Shown here one piece after another: positions 2,303 to 7,998 of a stretch of DNA of 8,003 nt. The notes under the pieces are model-generated. The model worked only from the letters and a program-made list of their open reading frames with translations, did no database searches and was not told the origin of the DNA. Origin of the DNA: Candidatus Hodarchaeota archaeon. GTDB taxonomy: Archaea > Asgardarchaeota > Heimdallarchaeia > Hodarchaeales > Hodarchaeaceae. The stretch's first letter is position 1. Each line of letters starts with the position of its first letter. The stretch is from the NCBI GenBank assembly GCA_016839785.1, contig JAEOTQ010000090.1:1-8003 (forward strand), given 5' to 3'. The translations under genes and the position numbers were made by a program.

Positions 2303-2379
2303 GGGCCGGTGGTCTAGCTCGGTATGACGCTAGTCTCACACACTAGAAGTCGGTAGTTCAAATCTGCCTCGGCCCACCA
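2303..2379 (+). tRNA. tRNA-Val, anticodon CAC, genomically encoded CCA
   Basis: Hand-folded cloverleaf. Acceptor stem GGGCCGG (2303-2309) pairs with TCGGCCC (2369-2375). D arm is GTCT/TGAC. Anticodon stem CTAGT (2330-2334) pairs with ACTAG (2342-2346), with loop CTCACAC (anticodon CAC at 2337-2339). Variable loop is AAGTC. T arm GGTAG (2352-2356) pairs with CTGCC (2364-2368), with loop TTCAAAT. Discriminator is A2376 and CCA is 2377-2379. The gene is a GC-rich island in AT-rich surroundings. Confidence 0.93.
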
Positions 2380-4423: not shown

Positions 4424-6619
4424 TTAAGAATCGAAAGTTTCTAGAATATATGTATAGATTTCCTTTTCAGCACCTTTCGAGATATGTTGTAATCGTTGAA
4501 CGATTAATTCGGGGGTAGATTTTGCGTATTTGTAATATTTTGGTGTTCTATCGACAATGAGATCCAAGTTCTCCGAAAGACCTTTTGCCTCAATTCCATC
4601 AATACGTAATCCTTCCTTGGTATATTTACTAATCTCTTGTGCTAAGTGAGTTACAAAAATACCCACTGAATCTGGAGATCGCCCTAATAAATCCAAAAAT
4701 GCTGCAATTACTCGAGCAGATGCTCCAGGCTCAGAAATACTCTCCATTTCGTCGGCTAGGACTAACCTTGAGTTGGGGCTCATAATCATTTGTGAAAGAG
4801 TTCTCAAGGTCGATTCAAAAGCTCCAGCGTTCATATGATCCGTAGATTTTCTATAATAATGTAATTCTTTGAATCCTCCAATTTTTGCTTCGTAACATGG
4901 GACAGGTAATCCCATTTGGCTAAGTATGACAATTACTGCGATGGCAACAAGTAAAGTTGTTTTTCCACCACTATTTGCTCCTGATAATAGTACGATGCGC
5001 TCTCCATCCACTCCATCGGTTATTTTCCCGATTTCTCCAATAGCGTAAGAGACAGGATCCAATTTTATCTGTCCTCGTAGTTCTTGATGCGCTAAAAATA
5101 AATTTTTCCCTTCTTTAAAGAATAATCCTGTTCCCCTACCTTCAAGAAAAGATGGTAAAGATAATTTATATGTCCCAGCAAATTTACCAATCATCAATAG
5201 ATAATCTAATTCCAACATACAATTTAATCCTTCTATTGCTACTCTCTCATATCCCTTCAATTTCTGGGCTAAATCAACTTTAAGTTCAAAAGCTTTACTC
5301 GATCGTTTCTTACGTATAAATTCAATAAATCGATTTTTAATATCATCTTGAGGGTCGATAGGAAATTTCAGCTCGCGGGGAAAGACGCCGTTTAAATAAT
5401 CGGTCTCTTCGTCCGATAAATTCAATTTAGCGGCTAGTTCAATCTCAGCCCTATTGATGATTTCTTCCACAGCCAAGAATAATTCATCATCCAGATATTC
5501 ACGTAAATCCTCACGGCTGGAGCTAGTAGAATAACCTTGACCCTCAGTTGAAAAGCCCTTAAGCAGCGCGAGAATTTTTTCACCTTCTAAATGAATCGTG
5601 GTATCCTGTAGTTTTTTTTCTAATTCATCATTAAGCTTCAATAATACTTCTTCCAAGACCATTTCAAAGGTCGTTTCAACCTTTAAAAGACGTGAAAAAT
5701 CCTTATTGAGTCTAGAACTTGGTTCTCCGGTTTCCTCTAGATTTGTTAACTCTTTACCCATATTAACCAACATATTTAGATCTAAATCTCCAATAAAGTT
5801 TTTCAATTTTTCAGAGGGAATCTCACGAAGAAGCAACGCTAGTTTAGATATTGTGATCAAAGTGTTTTTGTTCTGTGCGAAAAAAATCAATGATTTCTCT
5901 GGAAGAATGCGATTGACCTCATGACGTTGAGATTCAGAAACAGTAATAATATTTGGGAATTCATCATCAAGGATGTAATCACTGCCAATCCAAATTATTT
6001 CATCTAAACCAGCAAGAGTATCATTAATCTTCTCATAGTCTTCTATGAATAGAATTTCACAATACTTTCCTATTATATTAGAAAGAAGTTCATTATAGAT
6101 GCCTTTATCGGTAGTTGCCACAGCTCGAGATGCAGTATCAATGGATTCTGAATGTTCCTTTAAAGGAAGTAATTGGCGTAAATATGAATCATATTCAACA
6201 AGGGCATTTTTAGATCCTTGGACTATTGTGAATAATTCTTGTCCGAGTCGAGTTATTTCCTGACGATTTTTTATCTTATTTAATGCAGTAATGGGTAAGG
6301 GGAAGTACAAGTAAAGTTTTGAACGAGAGTAGAAAGTATTTCCAAATTTTGAAACCAGATCAATAATACGATTGTAAATTAGAATTGTATCTTCGGTTTT
6401 TAGAAAATCCTGTATTTGTTCACCAGTCTCTTGATAATGCAAATTTCGACACAAGCTAAGGGCAAATCGTTCCCCAATTCCATCAATAGAGGAGATTTCA
6501 GCAATTCGTGACCCTCGTAGGGCATTTAGAACTAGATTTTCGCTTCCAAAATATGAAACGAGTTTCTTTTCAATGGAAGGGCCAACTCCCCTTATATCAC
6601 GAAGTTTTATCACATTCAA
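4424..6619 (-). CDS. MutS-family (MutS2-like domain V) ABC ATPase with N-terminal (HhH)2 domain; no mismatch-recognition domain and no Smr domain
   Basis: 731-aa ORF. Walker A is GANSGGKTT (4955-4981), followed by MGLPVPCYEAKIG, GAFESTL, Walker B LVLADE and FVTHL. ISEPGASARVIAAFLDLL resembles the MutS2 DP-EGAALA-AILE segment. The N-terminal LRDIRGVGPSIEKKLVSYFGS...EISSIDGIGERFALSL gives two helix-hairpin-helix motifs (about 6440-6607). The start codon is TTG (6619-6617). The only in-frame ATG lies about 280 codons downstream and would delete the HhH region. Confidence 0.88.
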   Translation of the reverse strand: MNVIKLRDIRGVGPSIEKKLVSYFGSENLVLNALRGSRIAEISSIDGIGERFALSLCRNLHYQETGEQIQDFLKTEDTILIYNRIIDLVSKFGNTFYSRSKLYLYFPLPITALNKIKNRQEITRLGQELFTIVQGSKNALVEYDSYLRQLLPLKEHSESIDTASRAVATTDKGIYNELLSNIIGKYCEILFIEDYEKINDTLAGLDEIIWIGSDYILDDEFPNIITVSESQRHEVNRILPEKSLIFFAQNKNTLITISKLALLLREIPSEKLKNFIGDLDLNMLVNMGKELTNLEETGEPSSRLNKDFSRLLKVETTFEMVLEEVLLKLNDELEKKLQDTTIHLEGEKILALLKGFSTEGQGYSTSSSREDLREYLDDELFLAVEEIINRAEIELAAKLNLSDEETDYLNGVFPRELKFPIDPQDDIKNRFIEFIRKKRSSKAFELKVDLAQKLKGYERVAIEGLNCMLELDYLLMIGKFAGTYKLSLPSFLEGRGTGLFFKEGKNLFLAHQELRGQIKLDPVSYAIGEIGKITDGVDGERIVLLSGANSGGKTTLLVAIAVIVILSQMGLPVPCYEAKIGGFKELHYYRKSTDHMNAGAFESTLRTLSQMIMSPNSRLVLADEMESISEPGASARVIAAFLDLLGRSPDSVGIFVTHLAQEISKYTKEGLRIDGIEAKGLSENLDLIVDRTPKYYKYAKSTPELIVQRLQHISKGAEKEIYTYILETFDS

Positions 6620-6691
6620 TTCTATTACCGCTCTTTTTACATACTACAGGATATTCTAATATTAAGTCATTATTATCAGTTCGGTTTTTTC

Positions 6692-7603
6692 TTAAATTTT
6701 TGTGATTTCCTGCGCATTTACGAGTCCAATAAACTCATGTACCTCATCGTAAGAACAATGATCGGAATATGGGAAATAATGGACATCTAATCGTTTGGAA
6801 ATTAATTCAATTGCCCAACCTGTAGGGGAGATCCGTAAGGAATTTATTAAACGTGCTTCCGTTTGTTGGTCCAATCCAGAAAGATTTTCAACTCTCCTTC
6901 TACTCTCAACACAGATTCCTGACTCTGGATCATCGGTAAAAATATCCCAATCTCCACCAATCTCTTTATAGATTTTAACTTTTTTATCTGGAGCGAATAT
7001 TTTCACTTTCAGCGCATCACTAATTGTTTTCAATAGTTTTTCCTTCCCTATTTGATAGGCAGCAATCCAGATCTCTTTCTGTGGATAATTTCCATCAGCT
7101 AACATAAGAGAAAGGATTTCTGAGATTAAATCCTTTCGTGAAGGAAAAGTGTATTTAGGATTTTTTCCATAGGTATAATCTAACCATAAATGATCTGCAT
7201 CACGAATGAGTTCTATTTCATCCAGAATTGGCTGACCCAGACGGAAATCGCCTGTGTAAACTTCTTTTCTATTTTCTGGTGTCTCAGTTACAAACATTAA
7301 ACTTCCTAAACAATGATTTGCATCAATAGCATGAATTACAAAGTCATCGAAATCTAAAGATTGATTCTTATTAATTACTAAACATTTCTCTTTAGGAATT
7401 CGATGAAGCACTTTTATAGCTGCGGCTGTCTCTTTTGAGCAAACTATTGTTGAATCTGGTGAAGAGAGAATAGATTTTATTCCAGTAGTGTGATCACTGT
7501 GAGCGTGAGATAGAAAATAGTAATCTGATGATGTGGAGTGTTTTTTTCTTTTCCGAAGTGGAAATTCATCAAAATAACTATTGGATAACTTTGAAAAAAC
7601 CAT
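6692..7603 (-). CDS. SNM1/PSO2/Artemis-type (DRMBL) beta-CASP DNA nuclease
   Basis: 303-aa ORF with ATG at 7603-7601. Motifs: FLSHAHSDH (HAHSDH = 7490-7507), DANHC(LGS) (7310-7324), YTGDFR, WLDYTY (beta-CASP motif A), AAYQIGKEK, SPTGW (motif B) and YSDHCSYDE (about 6752-6766, motif C). All of these mirror the signature strings of eukaryotic SNM1A/Apollo/Artemis: HFHSDH, ANHCPG, TGDFR, LDTTY, YSIGKEK, PTGW, YSEHSS. Confidence 0.88.
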   Translation of the reverse strand: MVFSKLSNSYFDEFPLRKRKKHSTSSDYYFLSHAHSDHTTGIKSILSSPDSTIVCSKETAAAIKVLHRIPKEKCLVINKNQSLDFDDFVIHAIDANHCLGSLMFVTETPENRKEVYTGDFRLGQPILDEIELIRDADHLWLDYTYGKNPKYTFPSRKDLISEILSLMLADGNYPQKEIWIAAYQIGKEKLLKTISDALKVKIFAPDKKVKIYKEIGGDWDIFTDDPESGICVESRRRVENLSGLDQQTEARLINSLRISPTGWAIELISKRLDVHYFPYSDHCSYDEVHEFIGLVNAQEITKI

Positions 7604-7635: not shown

Positions 7636-7796
7636 CCATCTTTTCTCAATTGACAAATTACGATAAATTGCTAAATTAATTAATTTTAGGATTATTGGTT
7701 GGTATTTTATGTTAATAATCTAAAGGAAAATTGTTGTCTAATCTACTGGATTAGTATGTGAACAATTTGTTTGTATTGAAATCCCTTAAAATTATT

Positions 7797-7814
7797 GAGA
7801 AAGAAAGAAAAAAG
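7797..7814 (-). terminator. pyrimidine/oligo-T tract (CUUUUUUCUUUCUUUCUC on the - strand) downstream of the 5S locus
   Basis: The + strand purine tract gagaaagaaagaaaaaag reads as a T-rich run, including T6 at 7808-7813, on the - strand. It lies about 50 nt past the end of the 5S-derived sequence. Confidence 0.45.
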
Positions 7815-7857
7815 TAATAGAAAGGAGTTTGTATCTCATGGCGCATTTTCACCAGGG

Positions 7858-7867
7858 GATATTGTTT
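7858..7867 (-). other. trailer arm of a putative BHB-like processing motif (AAA bulge plus CAAUAUC)
   Basis: It lies immediately 3' of the 5S 5'-part. A7867-A7865 are unpaired. CAAUAUC (7864-7858) is perfectly complementary to GAUAUUG (7998-7992) in the leader. Confidence 0.55.
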
Positions 7868-7985
7868 CCGGGTTCGGAATGAGACCGGGTGTGACTCAGG
7901 CCCTTTGGCCGAAGAACCTTCAGCTTTCCGATTTTCCCGTAGGCGCGAGCACAACAGTACAGATCAGAACGGAGCCTGACTTAAC
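7866..7985 (-). rRNA. 5S rRNA, circularly permuted gene order (3' two-thirds first, then a capped helix I, then the 5' third)
   Basis: The - strand contains every 5S element, but in rotated order.
- GUUAAG plus the helix II 3' strand: 7985-7972.
- Helix V: UUCUGAU (7969-7963) pairs with AUCGGAA (7932-7926).
- Loop E and helix IV, with a CUCG loop at 7949-7946.
- Helix I as a closed hairpin: GCUGAAG-GUU-CUUCGGC (7924-7908).
- Helix II 5' strand GGGCCUGA (7903-7896) pairs with 7979-7972.
- Helix III and loop C: CACACCCGGUCUCAUUCCGAACCCGGAA (7893-7866).
The total is 120 nt, forming a GC-rich island. Confidence 0.75.
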
Positions 7986-7998
7986 TTTCGGCAATATC
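7986..7998 (-). other. leader arm of a putative BHB-like processing motif (GAUAUUG plus CCG plus AAA bulge)
   Basis: It lies immediately 5' of the GUUAAG that begins the 5S 3'-part. GAUAUUG (7998-7992) pairs with the trailer. CCG (7991-7989) can pair with CGG (7870-7868). AAA (7988-7986) is unpaired. Confidence 0.55.

What the first reader, a model, noticed from the sequence alone, without database searches (positions are those of the whole stretch)
7866..7985. 5S rRNA gene appears circularly permuted: the 3' part precedes the 5' part and helix I is closed by a GUU triloop
Read on the - strand, the GC-rich island does not fold as a linear 5S. It has a near-perfect helix III/loop C (CACACCCGGUCUCAUUCCGAACCCGGAA, 7893-7866). 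This differs at one or two positions from the methanococcal and Sulfolobus 5S sequences as I remember them. It is not followed by GUUAAG or helices V/IV.

Those missing parts lie upstream instead.
- GUUAAG-UCAGGCUC: 7985-7972.
- Helix V: 7969-7963 pairs with 7932-7926.
- A GUACUG...GGGAAA loop E/helix IV arm: 7960-7933.

The two natural termini are joined as a 7-bp hairpin with a 3-nt loop (GCUGAAG-GUU-CUUCGGC, 7924-7908).

Rotating the 120 nt to start at 7914 gives a fully canonical archaeal 5S, with helices I-V, loops A-E and helix II at 8 bp. In the DNA, the conserved GGAA|GUUAAG step of helix III is the break point, and its two sides are about 120 nt apart in swapped order.

Tandem 5S copies do not explain this. 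The sequence after the 5' part and the sequence before the 3' part are not 5S-like.

I know of permuted tRNA genes and RNA-level permutation or circular intermediates of large rRNAs. I do not know of a gene-level permuted 5S, but that needs a literature check.
Basis: partly seen in the sequence, partly recalled or inferred. Interest (0 to 1): 0.92.

Follow-up and report, generated by a model that had tools for sequence, protein, structure and literature searches.

The report
Circularly permuted 5S rRNA gene (Asgard archaea)
This Heimdall-group Asgard archaeon, like about 45 other Asgard genomes, encodes its 5S ribosomal RNA with the back half before the front half, flanked by a tRNA-splicing-type cleavage motif that should cut and rejoin the RNA into a normal, probably circular, 5S; this would explain why 5S genes have gone undetected in Asgard genomes.

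Summary
On the - strand, 7985-7866 holds a complete archaeal 5S rRNA whose 3' part (Rfam positions ~52-120) precedes its 5' part. Helix I is closed by a GUU loop. Rfam 5S hits it only as two sub-threshold pieces in swapped order. Folded as a circle or rotated, it adopts the canonical 5S fold.

- The leader (7998-7988) and trailer (7864-7858) pair into a relaxed bulge-helix-bulge (BHB) motif. Its two symmetric cut sites (7986|7985 and 7866|7865) would yield ...CCCGGAA-GUUAAG..., the universal 5S junction.
- The same permuted order, break point and BHB occur in 46 loci from 45 genomes. They cover Loki, Thor, Odin, Heimdall, Hod, Hermod, Jord, Frey and Njord lineages, with strong covariation.
- Neighbouring genes are about 79% identical to B3_Heim, but the 5S core is 119/120 identical, so the gene is functional.

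Most likely the tRNA splicing endonuclease and RtcB make a circular 5S. I found no report of this in the searchable literature. One paper notes that no 5S could be predicted in closed Heimdallarchaeum genomes.

Caveats: there is no RNA-level evidence, the absence of co-linear copies is only partly tested, and two strain contigs carry unexplained deletions in this gene.

The parts
7992..7998 (-). Leader strand (GAUAUUG) of the outer helix h of the BHB/processing stem; pairs with 7864-7858
   Evidence: Sequence. The cofold of the junction strands gives this helix in the window and in 35 of 37 distinct homologues. All 7 pairs show changes on both sides across lineages; the three pairs next to H are paired in 37/37 in the model-fitted alignment.
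7988..7991 (-). Leader strand (CCGA) of the central helix H of the BHB; pairs with CCGG at 7871-7868 (3 bp plus an A.C mismatch here; a 4-bp CCGG/CCGG in most lineages; CGUG/CACG in Odin and Jord)
7985..7987 (-). 5' bulge A-A|G; predicted endonuclease cut between 7986 and 7985; G7985 becomes the first retained nucleotide
   Evidence: b3 = G in 37/37. b2 varies (A, G, U, C), as expected for a discarded base. Cut position is from the established BHB rule plus the restored 5S junction.
7972..7985 (-). Start of the 3' part of 5S: helix III outer 3' strand and loop B side (GUUAAG, 7985-7980) and helix II 3' strand (UCAGGCUC, 7979-7972)
   Evidence: Rfam alignment to model ~52-65; folds; all 8 helix II pairs covary.
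7926..7969 (-). Helix V (7969-7963 with 7932-7926), loop E (GUACUG / GGGAAA) and helix IV with a UCGC loop
   Evidence: Rfam alignment, PP ~1.0; folds; helix V 7/7 pairs covary, 92.9% paired.
7908..7924 (-). Helix I closed as a hairpin: 3' strand GCUGAAG (7924-7918), GUU loop (7917-7915), 5' strand CUUCGGC (7914-7908)
   Evidence: Folds. Homologues have 7-8 bp (Njord-type longer) stems with compensatory changes, capped by UUCG, CUCG, CUUG, AUU, UUU and similar loops.
7866..7907 (-). 5' part of 5S: loop A (7907-7904), helix II 5' strand GGGCCUGA (7903-7896), loop B and helix III outer strand (7895-7889), helix III inner/loop C (7888-7868), bulge AA (7867-7866)
   Evidence: Rfam hit to model 27-51, PP 1.0; folds.
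7865..7867 (-). 3' bulge A-A|A; predicted cut between 7866 and 7865; A7865 is discarded
   Evidence: b1b2 = AA in 37/37. b3 varies (A 24, U 9, C 2, G 2). It appears as a 3-nt bulge between H and h in the cofolds.
7858..7864 (-). Trailer strand (CAAUAUC) of the outer helix h
7827..7837 (-). Trailer strand (GAGAUACAAAC) of a distal leader-trailer stem. Its partner GGUUUGUAAUCUC lies beyond the window end, near the predicted transcription start.
   Evidence: MFE of the precursor from L002. The same pairing is possible in L076. Weak evidence.
7797..7813 (-). T-rich run (UUUUUUCUUUCUUUCUC), the likely archaeal transcription terminator of the 5S unit
   Evidence: Sequence only; inference.

Best explanation
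Region 7985-7866 (- strand) is the functional 5S rRNA gene of a Heimdallarchaeia-group Asgard archaeon, encoded in circularly permuted order.

Transcription probably starts at a TATA-box promoter about 85 nt upstream of 7985, outside the window. It gives a precursor of leader, 3' part of 5S, 3-nt loop, 5' part of 5S, and trailer.

Leader and trailer pair into a processing stem. Its inner end is a relaxed bulge-helix-bulge motif: outer helix 7998-7992/7864-7858, central helix 7991-7988/7871-7868, and bulges AAG and AAA.

The archaeal tRNA splicing endonuclease cuts after the second bulge nucleotide on each strand. RtcB ligase then joins ...CCCGGAA to GUUAAG.... This restores helix III exactly as in every co-linear 5S.

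Because helix I is already closed by a stable 3-5 nt loop, the product is a covalently closed circular 5S rRNA of about 120 nt, which is incorporated into the 50S subunit.

What is shown:
- the permuted order;
- the 5S fold;
- the BHB-like pairing and its covariation;
- the conservation pattern of the bulge nucleotides;
- the distribution across Asgard lineages;
- purifying selection on the gene.

What is inferred: cleavage by EndA, ligation by RtcB, circularity of the mature form, and this being the only 5S gene in the genome.
For: Permuted order:
- Swapped partial RF00001 hits.
- The canonical fold is obtained on rotation or circular folding.

BHB motif:
- In 35 of 37 distinct homologues, an unconstrained cofold of the two junction strands gives helix h contiguous with a 3-4 bp helix H and a 3-nt bulge on the 3' strand.
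- h+H are 82% paired against 64% in shuffles, and 17-47% when the partner is slid. The covariation score is 0.455 against 0.145.
- H covaries with helix III: Odin and Jord have CGUG in the leader opposite CACG.
- Retained bulge bases are invariant (G; AA) and discarded ones vary.
- The predicted ligation product equals the Rfam consensus uCggAA-guUAAG.

5S helices:
- Over 44 pairs, 84% are paired against 66% in shuffles, and 321 cells have changes on both sides against 109, with 0/500 shuffles reaching the observed values.

Distribution:
- 46 of 69 hits of an order-specific pattern in GTDB species genomes carry this gene, from 45 genomes. 39 are labelled Asgard and the others are unclassified archaea or mislabelled contigs.
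- The remaining 23 hits are bacterial chance matches, close to the number I expected by chance.

Selection:
- The flanks are ~79% identical to B3_Heim over 6.3 kb. The 5S core is 119/120 identical, and the one change is G.U to G-C.

No co-linear copy detected:
- The co-linear junction of this sequence type gave 0 hits in the metagenome collection.
- Rfam finds no 5S at gathering score in 18 Asgard loci that carry the permuted gene.
- Wu et al. 2022 could not predict any 5S in closed Heimdallarchaeum genomes (PMC8813620).

Enzymes and tolerance:
- Asgard EndA is the broad-specificity (alpha-beta)2 type with the L1 loop (PMC5829648).
- Joining the native 5S ends with a 4-nt connector is compatible with active E. 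coli ribosomes (PMC7283268).
- A BHB-circularised permuted SRP RNA exists in Thermoproteus (PMC4731332).
Against: - There is no RNA-level evidence of any kind, so junction reads, circularity and ribosome incorporation are all untested.
- The BHB is relaxed. In this clade H is 3 bp plus an A.C mismatch. The helix beyond the 5' bulge is at best 3 bp (GUU/AAC), so the 5' site lies in a loop rather than a canonical 3-nt bulge.
- Forming H requires the 3' CCGG to leave its helix III partner. The MFE fold of the whole precursor does not show the BHB (z = 0.04).
- The absence of a co-linear 5S elsewhere in this genome could not be tested directly.
- Sun et al. 2021 list a '5S rRNA gene' in Borr- and Jordarchaeum MAGs, method unstated.
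- Two strain-level contigs of this same locus carry deletions that would inactivate the gene: 98 nt in L001 and 11 nt in L003.
Confidence: 0.72

Rival explanations
1. The circular RNA is only an intermediate. After BHB cleavage and ligation, an unknown nuclease opens the helix I loop, giving a conventional linear 5S with ends in helix I. Permuted tRNAs and circular pre-16S/23S rRNAs behave this way.
For: Archaeal circular pre-rRNAs and the circular intermediates of permuted tRNAs are re-opened (background in PMC12918454; Soma 2007, cited in PMC4267664). All evidence for the BHB fits this reading equally well.
Against: The helix I cap is only 3-5 nt. It is variable in sequence and often a UUCG/CUCG/CUUG-type stable tetraloop. 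No conserved motif marks a second processing site. A closed helix I is tolerated in ribosomes (PMC7283268).
Confidence: 0.14
2. The mature 5S stays permuted and linear. Leader and trailer are trimmed, by EndA or other nucleases, but the ends in helix III are not ligated. The ribosome would carry a 'nicked' 5S, by analogy with the permuted mitochondrial 5S of brown algae.
For: Permuted 5S molecules that stay permuted exist in brown-algal mitochondria (PMC4267664). Helix III outer and inner stems could hold the two ends together without ligation.
Against: The cut sites regenerate exactly the universal junction with no gain or loss of nucleotides. The bulge bases follow the retained/discarded pattern expected for a splice junction. 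EndA products (2',3'-cyclic phosphate and 5'-OH) are the natural RtcB substrates, and in the Thermoproteus SRP RNA the ends are ligated (PMC4731332).
Confidence: 0.1
3. The locus is a rearranged relic or pseudogene, or an assembly artefact. The working 5S would be a conventional co-linear gene elsewhere in the genome.
For: Two strain-level contigs carry inactivating deletions, and all indels in ~20 kb fall in this locus. YT1_021 contigs break at this gene. L055 has a truncated duplicate next to it. Some Asgard MAG descriptions list a 5S gene.
Against: The same arrangement was assembled independently in 45 genomes from many studies, plus 2 further metagenome contigs. The core is 119-120/120 identical where flanks are 75-80% identical. 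Compensatory changes occur in all helices and in the leader/trailer helix. The co-linear junction gave 0 hits in metagenomes. No 5S could be predicted in closed Heimdallarchaeum genomes.
Confidence: 0.04

Closest known systems
Permuted, BHB-circularised SRP RNA of Thermoproteus (Plagens et al. 2015, PMC4731332)
   Same: A universal structured ncRNA encoded as 3' part then 5' part. Leader and trailer fold into a BHB. In Thermoproteus this is cut by the tRNA splicing endonuclease and the ends are ligated, restoring a conserved element. The mature RNA is circular, and the natural ends are replaced by continuous sequence.
   Different: A different RNA (SRP rather than 5S rRNA). The SRP case is confined to a few Thermoproteus species, whereas this one spans most sampled Asgard lineages. 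In Thermoproteus, cleavage and circularity were shown experimentally; here they are only inferred.
Permuted tRNA genes (Cyanidioschyzon merolae, Soma 2007; Thermofilum, Chan 2011, cited)
   Same: Swapped gene halves, a BHB at the leader/trailer junction, and a circular RNA made by the splicing machinery.
   Different: The tRNA circle is an intermediate, re-opened by RNase P and tRNase Z at the linker. Here no second processing signal is visible, and the linker is a stable 3-5 nt hairpin loop.
Permuted mitochondrial 5S rRNA of brown algae and other stramenopiles (Valach et al. 2014, PMC4267664; Rfam mtPerm-5S)
   Same: A 5S rRNA in which helix I is a closed hairpin and the molecule's ends lie elsewhere.
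   Different: There the ends sit at the three-way junction between the alpha and gamma domains. The RNA stays permuted and linear, with no BHB and no ligation. Here the break is inside helix III, between the AA bulge and GUUAAG, and is predicted to be sealed. Rfam's 5S clan gave no mtPerm-5S hit.
Archaeal circular pre-16S/23S rRNAs; circular or permuted mature 23S (PMC7758197, PMC12918454, bioRxiv 10.64898/2026.03.23.713588)
   Same: A leader-trailer processing stem carrying a BHB, with EndA/RtcB circularisation of an rRNA.
   Different: Those genes are co-linear, and any permutation arises at the RNA level. PMC12918454 states that this pathway applies to 16S and 23S 'but not 5S rRNAs'. Here the gene itself is permuted and it is the 5S.
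Engineered cp5S rRNA in E. coli (Huang et al. 2020, PMC7283268)
   Same: Native 5S ends joined by a 4-nt connector and new ends opened elsewhere. The resulting ribosomes are active, which shows that a capped helix I is tolerated.
   Different: It is artificial. The new ends were placed in loop C or D and fused into 23S rRNA, not religated into a circle.

Membership tests
5S rRNA (Rfam RF00001) | Co-linear match to the covariance model at or above the gathering score (38 bits) | tested here: not met
   No hit at gathering score in the window or in 18 Asgard loci carrying the gene. The native strand gives two partial hits of 20.8 and 15.8 bits in swapped order.
5S rRNA (Rfam RF00001) | Helices I-V, the three-way junction, and the conserved loop C (CCGAAC), loop E (GUACUG/GGGAA) and GGAAGUUAAG motifs, once the order is restored | tested here: met
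   The rotated and circular MFE folds give the full architecture. The motifs align to the Rfam consensus with PP ~1. There is covariation in helices II, IV and V, and compensatory changes in helix I.
BHB-processed permuted ncRNA genes (permuted tRNA, Thermoproteus SRP RNA) | The 3' part precedes the 5' part within one transcription unit | tested here: met
   The two parts are separated by only a 3-nt loop. There is a single TATA-like promoter upstream (L002, L075, L076) and a T-run downstream.
BHB-processed permuted ncRNA genes (permuted tRNA, Thermoproteus SRP RNA) | Leader and trailer form a bulge-helix-bulge (4-bp helix flanked by at least one 3-nt bulge) exactly at the two ends of the mature sequence | tested here: met
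   An h-H-3-nt-bulge structure is recovered in 35 of 37 cofolds, with covariation. The motif is a relaxed form: the helix beyond the 5' bulge is weak or absent, and H is 3 bp plus a mismatch in the window's clade.
BHB-processed permuted ncRNA genes (permuted tRNA, Thermoproteus SRP RNA) | Cleavage by the tRNA splicing endonuclease and ligation by RtcB, giving junction-spanning or circular RNA | not testable with these tools
   This needs RNA-seq, RNase R treatment or in vitro cleavage. The only indirect support is the retained/discarded conservation pattern of the bulge bases and the broad-specificity EndA type reported for Asgard archaea.
Stramenopile mitochondrial permuted 5S (mtPerm-5S) | Ends at the alpha/gamma junction, helix I replaced by a 5' hairpin, and a product that stays linear | tested here: not met
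   Here the break lies in helix III, between the AA bulge and GUUAAG. No mtPerm-5S hit appeared in the relaxed Rfam scan. BHB flanks are present, unlike in that family.

The most novel reading that the evidence does not exclude
The mature 5S rRNA in Asgard ribosomes is a covalently closed circle made by the tRNA-splicing machinery from a permuted gene that arose once, at or before the Asgard ancestor.

All eukaryotes have a co-linear 5S gene. The permutation would therefore be a rare genomic change that bears on where eukaryotes branch. Either they diverged before it arose, or their lineage re-created a co-linear gene, for example by reverse transcription of a circle opened in helix I.

It would also be the first naturally circular 5S rRNA, and the first rRNA gene permuted at the DNA level and repaired by splicing.
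Probability: 0.5. Interest if true: 0.95.

Novelty: new variant of a known kind. Interest (0 to 1): 0.88.

Why it matters
1. It would explain a documented gap. 5S rRNA genes 'could not be predicted' in closed Asgard genomes (PMC8813620), and standard tools miss them, which also affects MIMAG 'high-quality' calls for Asgard MAGs. A permuted covariance model such as R1 here finds them at 100-156 bits.

2. It extends the moonlighting of the tRNA splicing endonuclease and RtcB from tRNA and one SRP RNA to a ribosomal RNA across a whole archaeal phylum.

3. It predicts a circular 5S inside ribosomes. That can be tested directly in the Asgard cultures and metatranscriptomes already available.

4. 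As a discrete, hard-to-reverse character shared by Loki, Thor, Odin, Heimdall, Hod, Njord and related lineages but absent from eukaryotes, it adds an independent marker to the debate on where eukaryotes branch.

Tried and rejected
- The Rfam gathering scan of the window found only tRNA-Val.
I used the swapped partial hits, folds and covariation instead.
- The MFE fold of the 281-nt precursor was uninformative (z = 0.04) and did not display the BHB. The junction-strand cofold was informative.
- The plain MAFFT alignment put helices I and II out of register between the Loki and Heimdall types (59-65% paired). Re-aligning to a CM improved helices II and V but not helix I, so I read helix I from per-sequence folds.
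- Tandem 5S copies are rejected. The flanks are unique, the halves are joined by 3 nt, and the co-linear junction is absent from metagenome contigs.
- An assembly artefact is rejected, given 45 independent genomes and 2 further metagenome contigs.
- A protein-coding reading of the overlapping ORFs (window 7751-7954; L002 9435-9809) is rejected. They have no Pfam hit, the indel variants shift their frames, and the covariation is RNA-type.
- Ten literature searches found no report of a permuted or circular 5S in Asgard or any other archaeon. Terms included 'permuted 5S', 'circular 5S', and Asgard + 5S rRNA + permuted/BHB/cryo-EM/RtcB. The library lacks most subscription-journal papers, so earlier publication cannot be excluded.
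- The second metagenome scan did not retrieve the window's own contigs. It therefore could not be used to count deletion alleles.

Full report
**1. What is in the window**

Read on the - strand, 7985-7866 is a GC-rich island (about 0.5 GC against 0.25-0.38 around it). Every element of an archaeal 5S rRNA is present, but the order is swapped.
- GUUAAG and the helix II 3' strand lie at 7985-7972.
- Helix V, loop E and helix IV lie at 7969-7926.
- Helix I is closed as a hairpin, GCUGAAG-GUU-CUUCGGC, at 7924-7908.
- Loop A and the helix II 5' strand lie at 7907-7896.
- Helix III and loop C lie at 7895-7866.

Rfam's 5S model finds nothing at its gathering score. At a relaxed threshold it gives two partial hits in swapped order: model 27-51 at 7890..7866 and model ~52-120 at 7985..7915. 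Rotated to start at 7914, the 120 nt fold without constraint into the textbook 5S structure (-40.7 kcal/mol, z = -1.73). The same structure is the MFE when the RNA is folded as a circle.

**2. The flanks carry a splicing-type motif**

The window ends 18 nt upstream of the gene. I therefore fetched the same contig from JGI metagenomes through the neighbouring Lactamase_B_2 protein (L001-L005).

The leader GAUAUUG (7998-7992) is the exact complement of the trailer CAAUAUC (7864-7858). Next to it, the leader CCGA (7991-7988) faces CCGG (7871-7868). A 3-nt bulge, AAA, lies on the 3' strand, and AAG follows on the 5' strand.

[quoted passage not shown] Applied here, the retained RNA starts at G7985 and ends at A7866. 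Ligation gives ...CCCGGAA-GUUAAG..., which is the Rfam consensus uCggAA-guUAAG.

Further upstream in L002, L004, L075 and L076 there is a TATA-like AAATATATAAAG about 85 nt before the gene. A T-run follows the trailer at 7813-7797. A distal leader/trailer stem is possible.

**3. It is not peculiar to this genome**

I scanned the 185,579 GTDB species genomes for GTACTG..GGGAA..YCGAACMCGGAA. This is an order of 5S motifs that occurs only if the 3' part precedes the 5' part. The scan gave 69 hits.
- 46 of them, from 45 genomes, are this gene.
- 39 are labelled as Asgard taxa: Promethearchaeota/-ia, Thor-, Odin-, Heimdall-, Hod-, Hermod-, Jord-, Frey- and Njordarchaeota.
- 5 are labelled 'archaeon'.
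- One is labelled Thermoproteota.
- One is labelled as a Nanopelagicaceae bacterium. Its 5S is identical to Loki-type contigs, so it is a mis-binned contig.
- The other 23 hits are bacterial chance matches, about the number I expected by chance.

All 46 share the same break point. All have helix I capped by a 3-5 nt loop (UUCG, CUCG, CUUG, AUU, GUU and others), with compensatory stem changes such as GCUGAAG/CUUCGGC, GCUGGGU/ACCCGGC, ACUGUAAG/CUUACGGU and GCUGCCAG/CUGGCGGC. Most fold as circles into the 5S architecture.

**4. Covariation**

On an alignment fitted to a model of the native order (R1), 84% of 1593 cells are paired, against 66% in shuffles and 34-50% when partners are slid. There are 321 cells with changes on both sides against 109 in shuffles, with 0/500 shuffles reaching the observed values. 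That alignment leans towards the structure, but the unfitted MAFFT alignment gives the same direction.

The leader/trailer helix h covaries at all 7 positions; one pair reads CG 12, GC 12, AU 8, UA 4. For h+H the covariation score is 0.455 against 0.145.

The central helix H covaries with helix III. Odin and Jord have CACGGAA in helix III and CGUG, not CACG, in the leader. The leader repeat is therefore a pairing partner, not a leftover duplicate.

The bulge bases follow the expected splice pattern.
- Retained bases never vary: G on the 5' side and AA on the 3' side, in 37/37.
- Discarded bases do vary: b2 on the 5' side is A, G, U or C; b3 on the 3' side is A 24, U 9, C 2, G 2.

An unconstrained cofold of the two junction strands gives h, H and the 3-nt bulge in 35 of 37 sequences.

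**5. The gene is functional**

The window is syntenic with Heimdallarchaeota B3_Heim (L071) at 79% nucleotide identity over 6.3 kb, and with Hodarchaeota YT MAGs at 75-77%. In contrast, the 120-nt core is 119/120 or 120/120 identical to these genomes. The single differences convert G.U pairs to G-C or A-U.

The organism is therefore a Heimdallarchaeia-group Asgard archaeon with a strongly constrained permuted 5S gene.

**6. Is there another, ordinary 5S?**

I could not scan whole genomes, but three lines argue against one.
- The co-linear junction of this sequence type (CCGAACCCGGAAGTTAAGTYAGGYTCC) has no match in the metagenome contig collection.
- Rfam finds no 5S at gathering score in 18 Asgard loci that contain the permuted gene. 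This shows why annotation pipelines miss it.
- Wu et al. [quoted passage not shown]

Against this, Sun et al. 2021 list a 5S gene in two Asgard MAG descriptions without giving details.

**7. Mechanism**

The best-supported reading runs as follows. The precursor's leader and trailer pair. The (alpha-beta)2 EndA cuts both sites; this enzyme is reported for Asgard archaea with the L1 loop that confers broad substrate specificity (PMC5829648). RtcB seals helix III. Because helix I is already capped, the product is a circle.

Two precedents support this. The permuted SRP RNA of Thermoproteus is cut at a BHB by EndA, and the circular form is the functional one (PMC4731332). E. coli ribosomes work with a 5S whose native ends are joined by a 4-nt connector (PMC7283268).

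The weak points are:
- the motif is relaxed: H is 3 bp plus A.C in this clade, and there is little or no helix beyond the 5' bulge;
- H competes with the inner stem of helix III;
- nothing here is RNA-level evidence.

The rival outcomes are a circle re-opened in the helix I loop and a nicked, unligated permuted 5S. Neither can be excluded. The stable, variable tetraloop caps, the lack of any second conserved signal, and the exact restoration of the junction make both less likely.

**8. Unexplained**

Four strain-level contigs are 99.85-99.92% identical over about 20.9 kb. Every indel among them lies inside this transcription unit.
- L001 has a 98-nt deletion, running from just after the TATA box to just before GUACUG.
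- L003 has an 11-nt deletion, which removes the helix V 5' strand.
- L002 has a 3-nt deletion in the trailer.

The first two would inactivate the gene. That is hard to reconcile with its conservation unless they are artefacts, minor alleles, or covered by a second copy.

Two related observations:
- The two YT1_021 contigs break at this gene.
- L055 carries a truncated duplicate of the leader plus 3' part about 200 nt upstream.

Both hint at local duplication and deletion, which is also how permuted genes are thought to arise.

**9. Novelty**

Permuted ncRNA genes repaired by BHB splicing are known for tRNA and one SRP RNA. A different, unligated permuted 5S is known in brown-algal mitochondria (PMC4267664). 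Circular pre-16S/23S rRNAs and even circular mature 23S rRNAs are known, explicitly 'but not 5S' (PMC12918454).

Ten full-text searches found no report of a permuted or BHB-circularised 5S gene in Asgard or any other archaeon. The library omits most subscription-journal papers, so earlier publication cannot be excluded.

I rate this a new variant of a known kind. Interest is high because it is phylum-wide, it fills a documented annotation gap, it predicts a circular rRNA in ribosomes, and it supplies a discrete character that bears on the Asgard-eukaryote relationship.

Noticed in passing
L001 9549-9646 equivalent (98-nt deletion); L003 (11-nt deletion, equivalent to window 7971-7961); L002 (3-nt deletion, window ~7853-7851): Among strain-level contigs of this locus (99.85-99.92% identical over ~20.9 kb), every indel falls inside the permuted 5S transcription unit. 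Two of them would inactivate the gene. They could be real alleles, evidence of a second copy, or an assembly or library artefact; I could not tell which.
   Followed up: partly
L055 3207-3360: A truncated duplicate of the leader plus the 3' part of the permuted 5S (through GGGA) lies ~200 nt upstream of the intact gene (34 bits against 156 bits with model R1). This suggests local duplication and deletion at the locus.
   Followed up: partly
L038 (DATKTW010000142.1, labelled Candidatus Nanopelagicaceae bacterium): This contig carries a Loki-type permuted 5S identical in its core to those of four Promethearchaeota MAGs. It is almost certainly an Asgard contig mis-binned into a bacterial MAG.
   Followed up: no
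L064 3915-4064 (JAPDJY010000015.1, labelled Thermoproteota archaeon S9B3_HD70): It has the same permuted order and a 13-bp leader/trailer helix with a BHB, in a GC-rich MAG labelled Thermoproteota. Either the label is wrong (Njord-like Asgard) or the feature extends beyond Asgard.
   Followed up: no
window 7751-7954 (-); L002 9435-9809 and L004 6763-7140 (opposite strand): ORF finders and the source annotation call hypothetical proteins of 67 to 125 aa with no Pfam hit across the 5S gene. These are likely spurious calls over an unrecognised RNA gene.
   Followed up: partly
L027 1-124 and L069 3077-3174 (both from Hodarchaeota MAG YT1_021): Two contigs of one MAG end inside or right after the permuted 5S gene. 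The assembly graph evidently branches here, through strain variation or more than one copy.
   Followed up: no
window 2303-2379 (+): A tRNA-Val(CAC) scoring 57.9 bits, GC-rich in an AT-rich genome. The same tRNA recurs in the syntenic B3_Heim locus (L071 566-639).
   Followed up: no
window 4424-7603 (-), and L039, L046, L060, L028, L050: The MutS_V-domain gene and the Lactamase_B_2 gene next to the 5S are syntenic, at ~66% nucleotide identity, across several Heimdall, Hod and Hermod MAGs. The position of the 5S gene is conserved within this class.
   Followed up: partly
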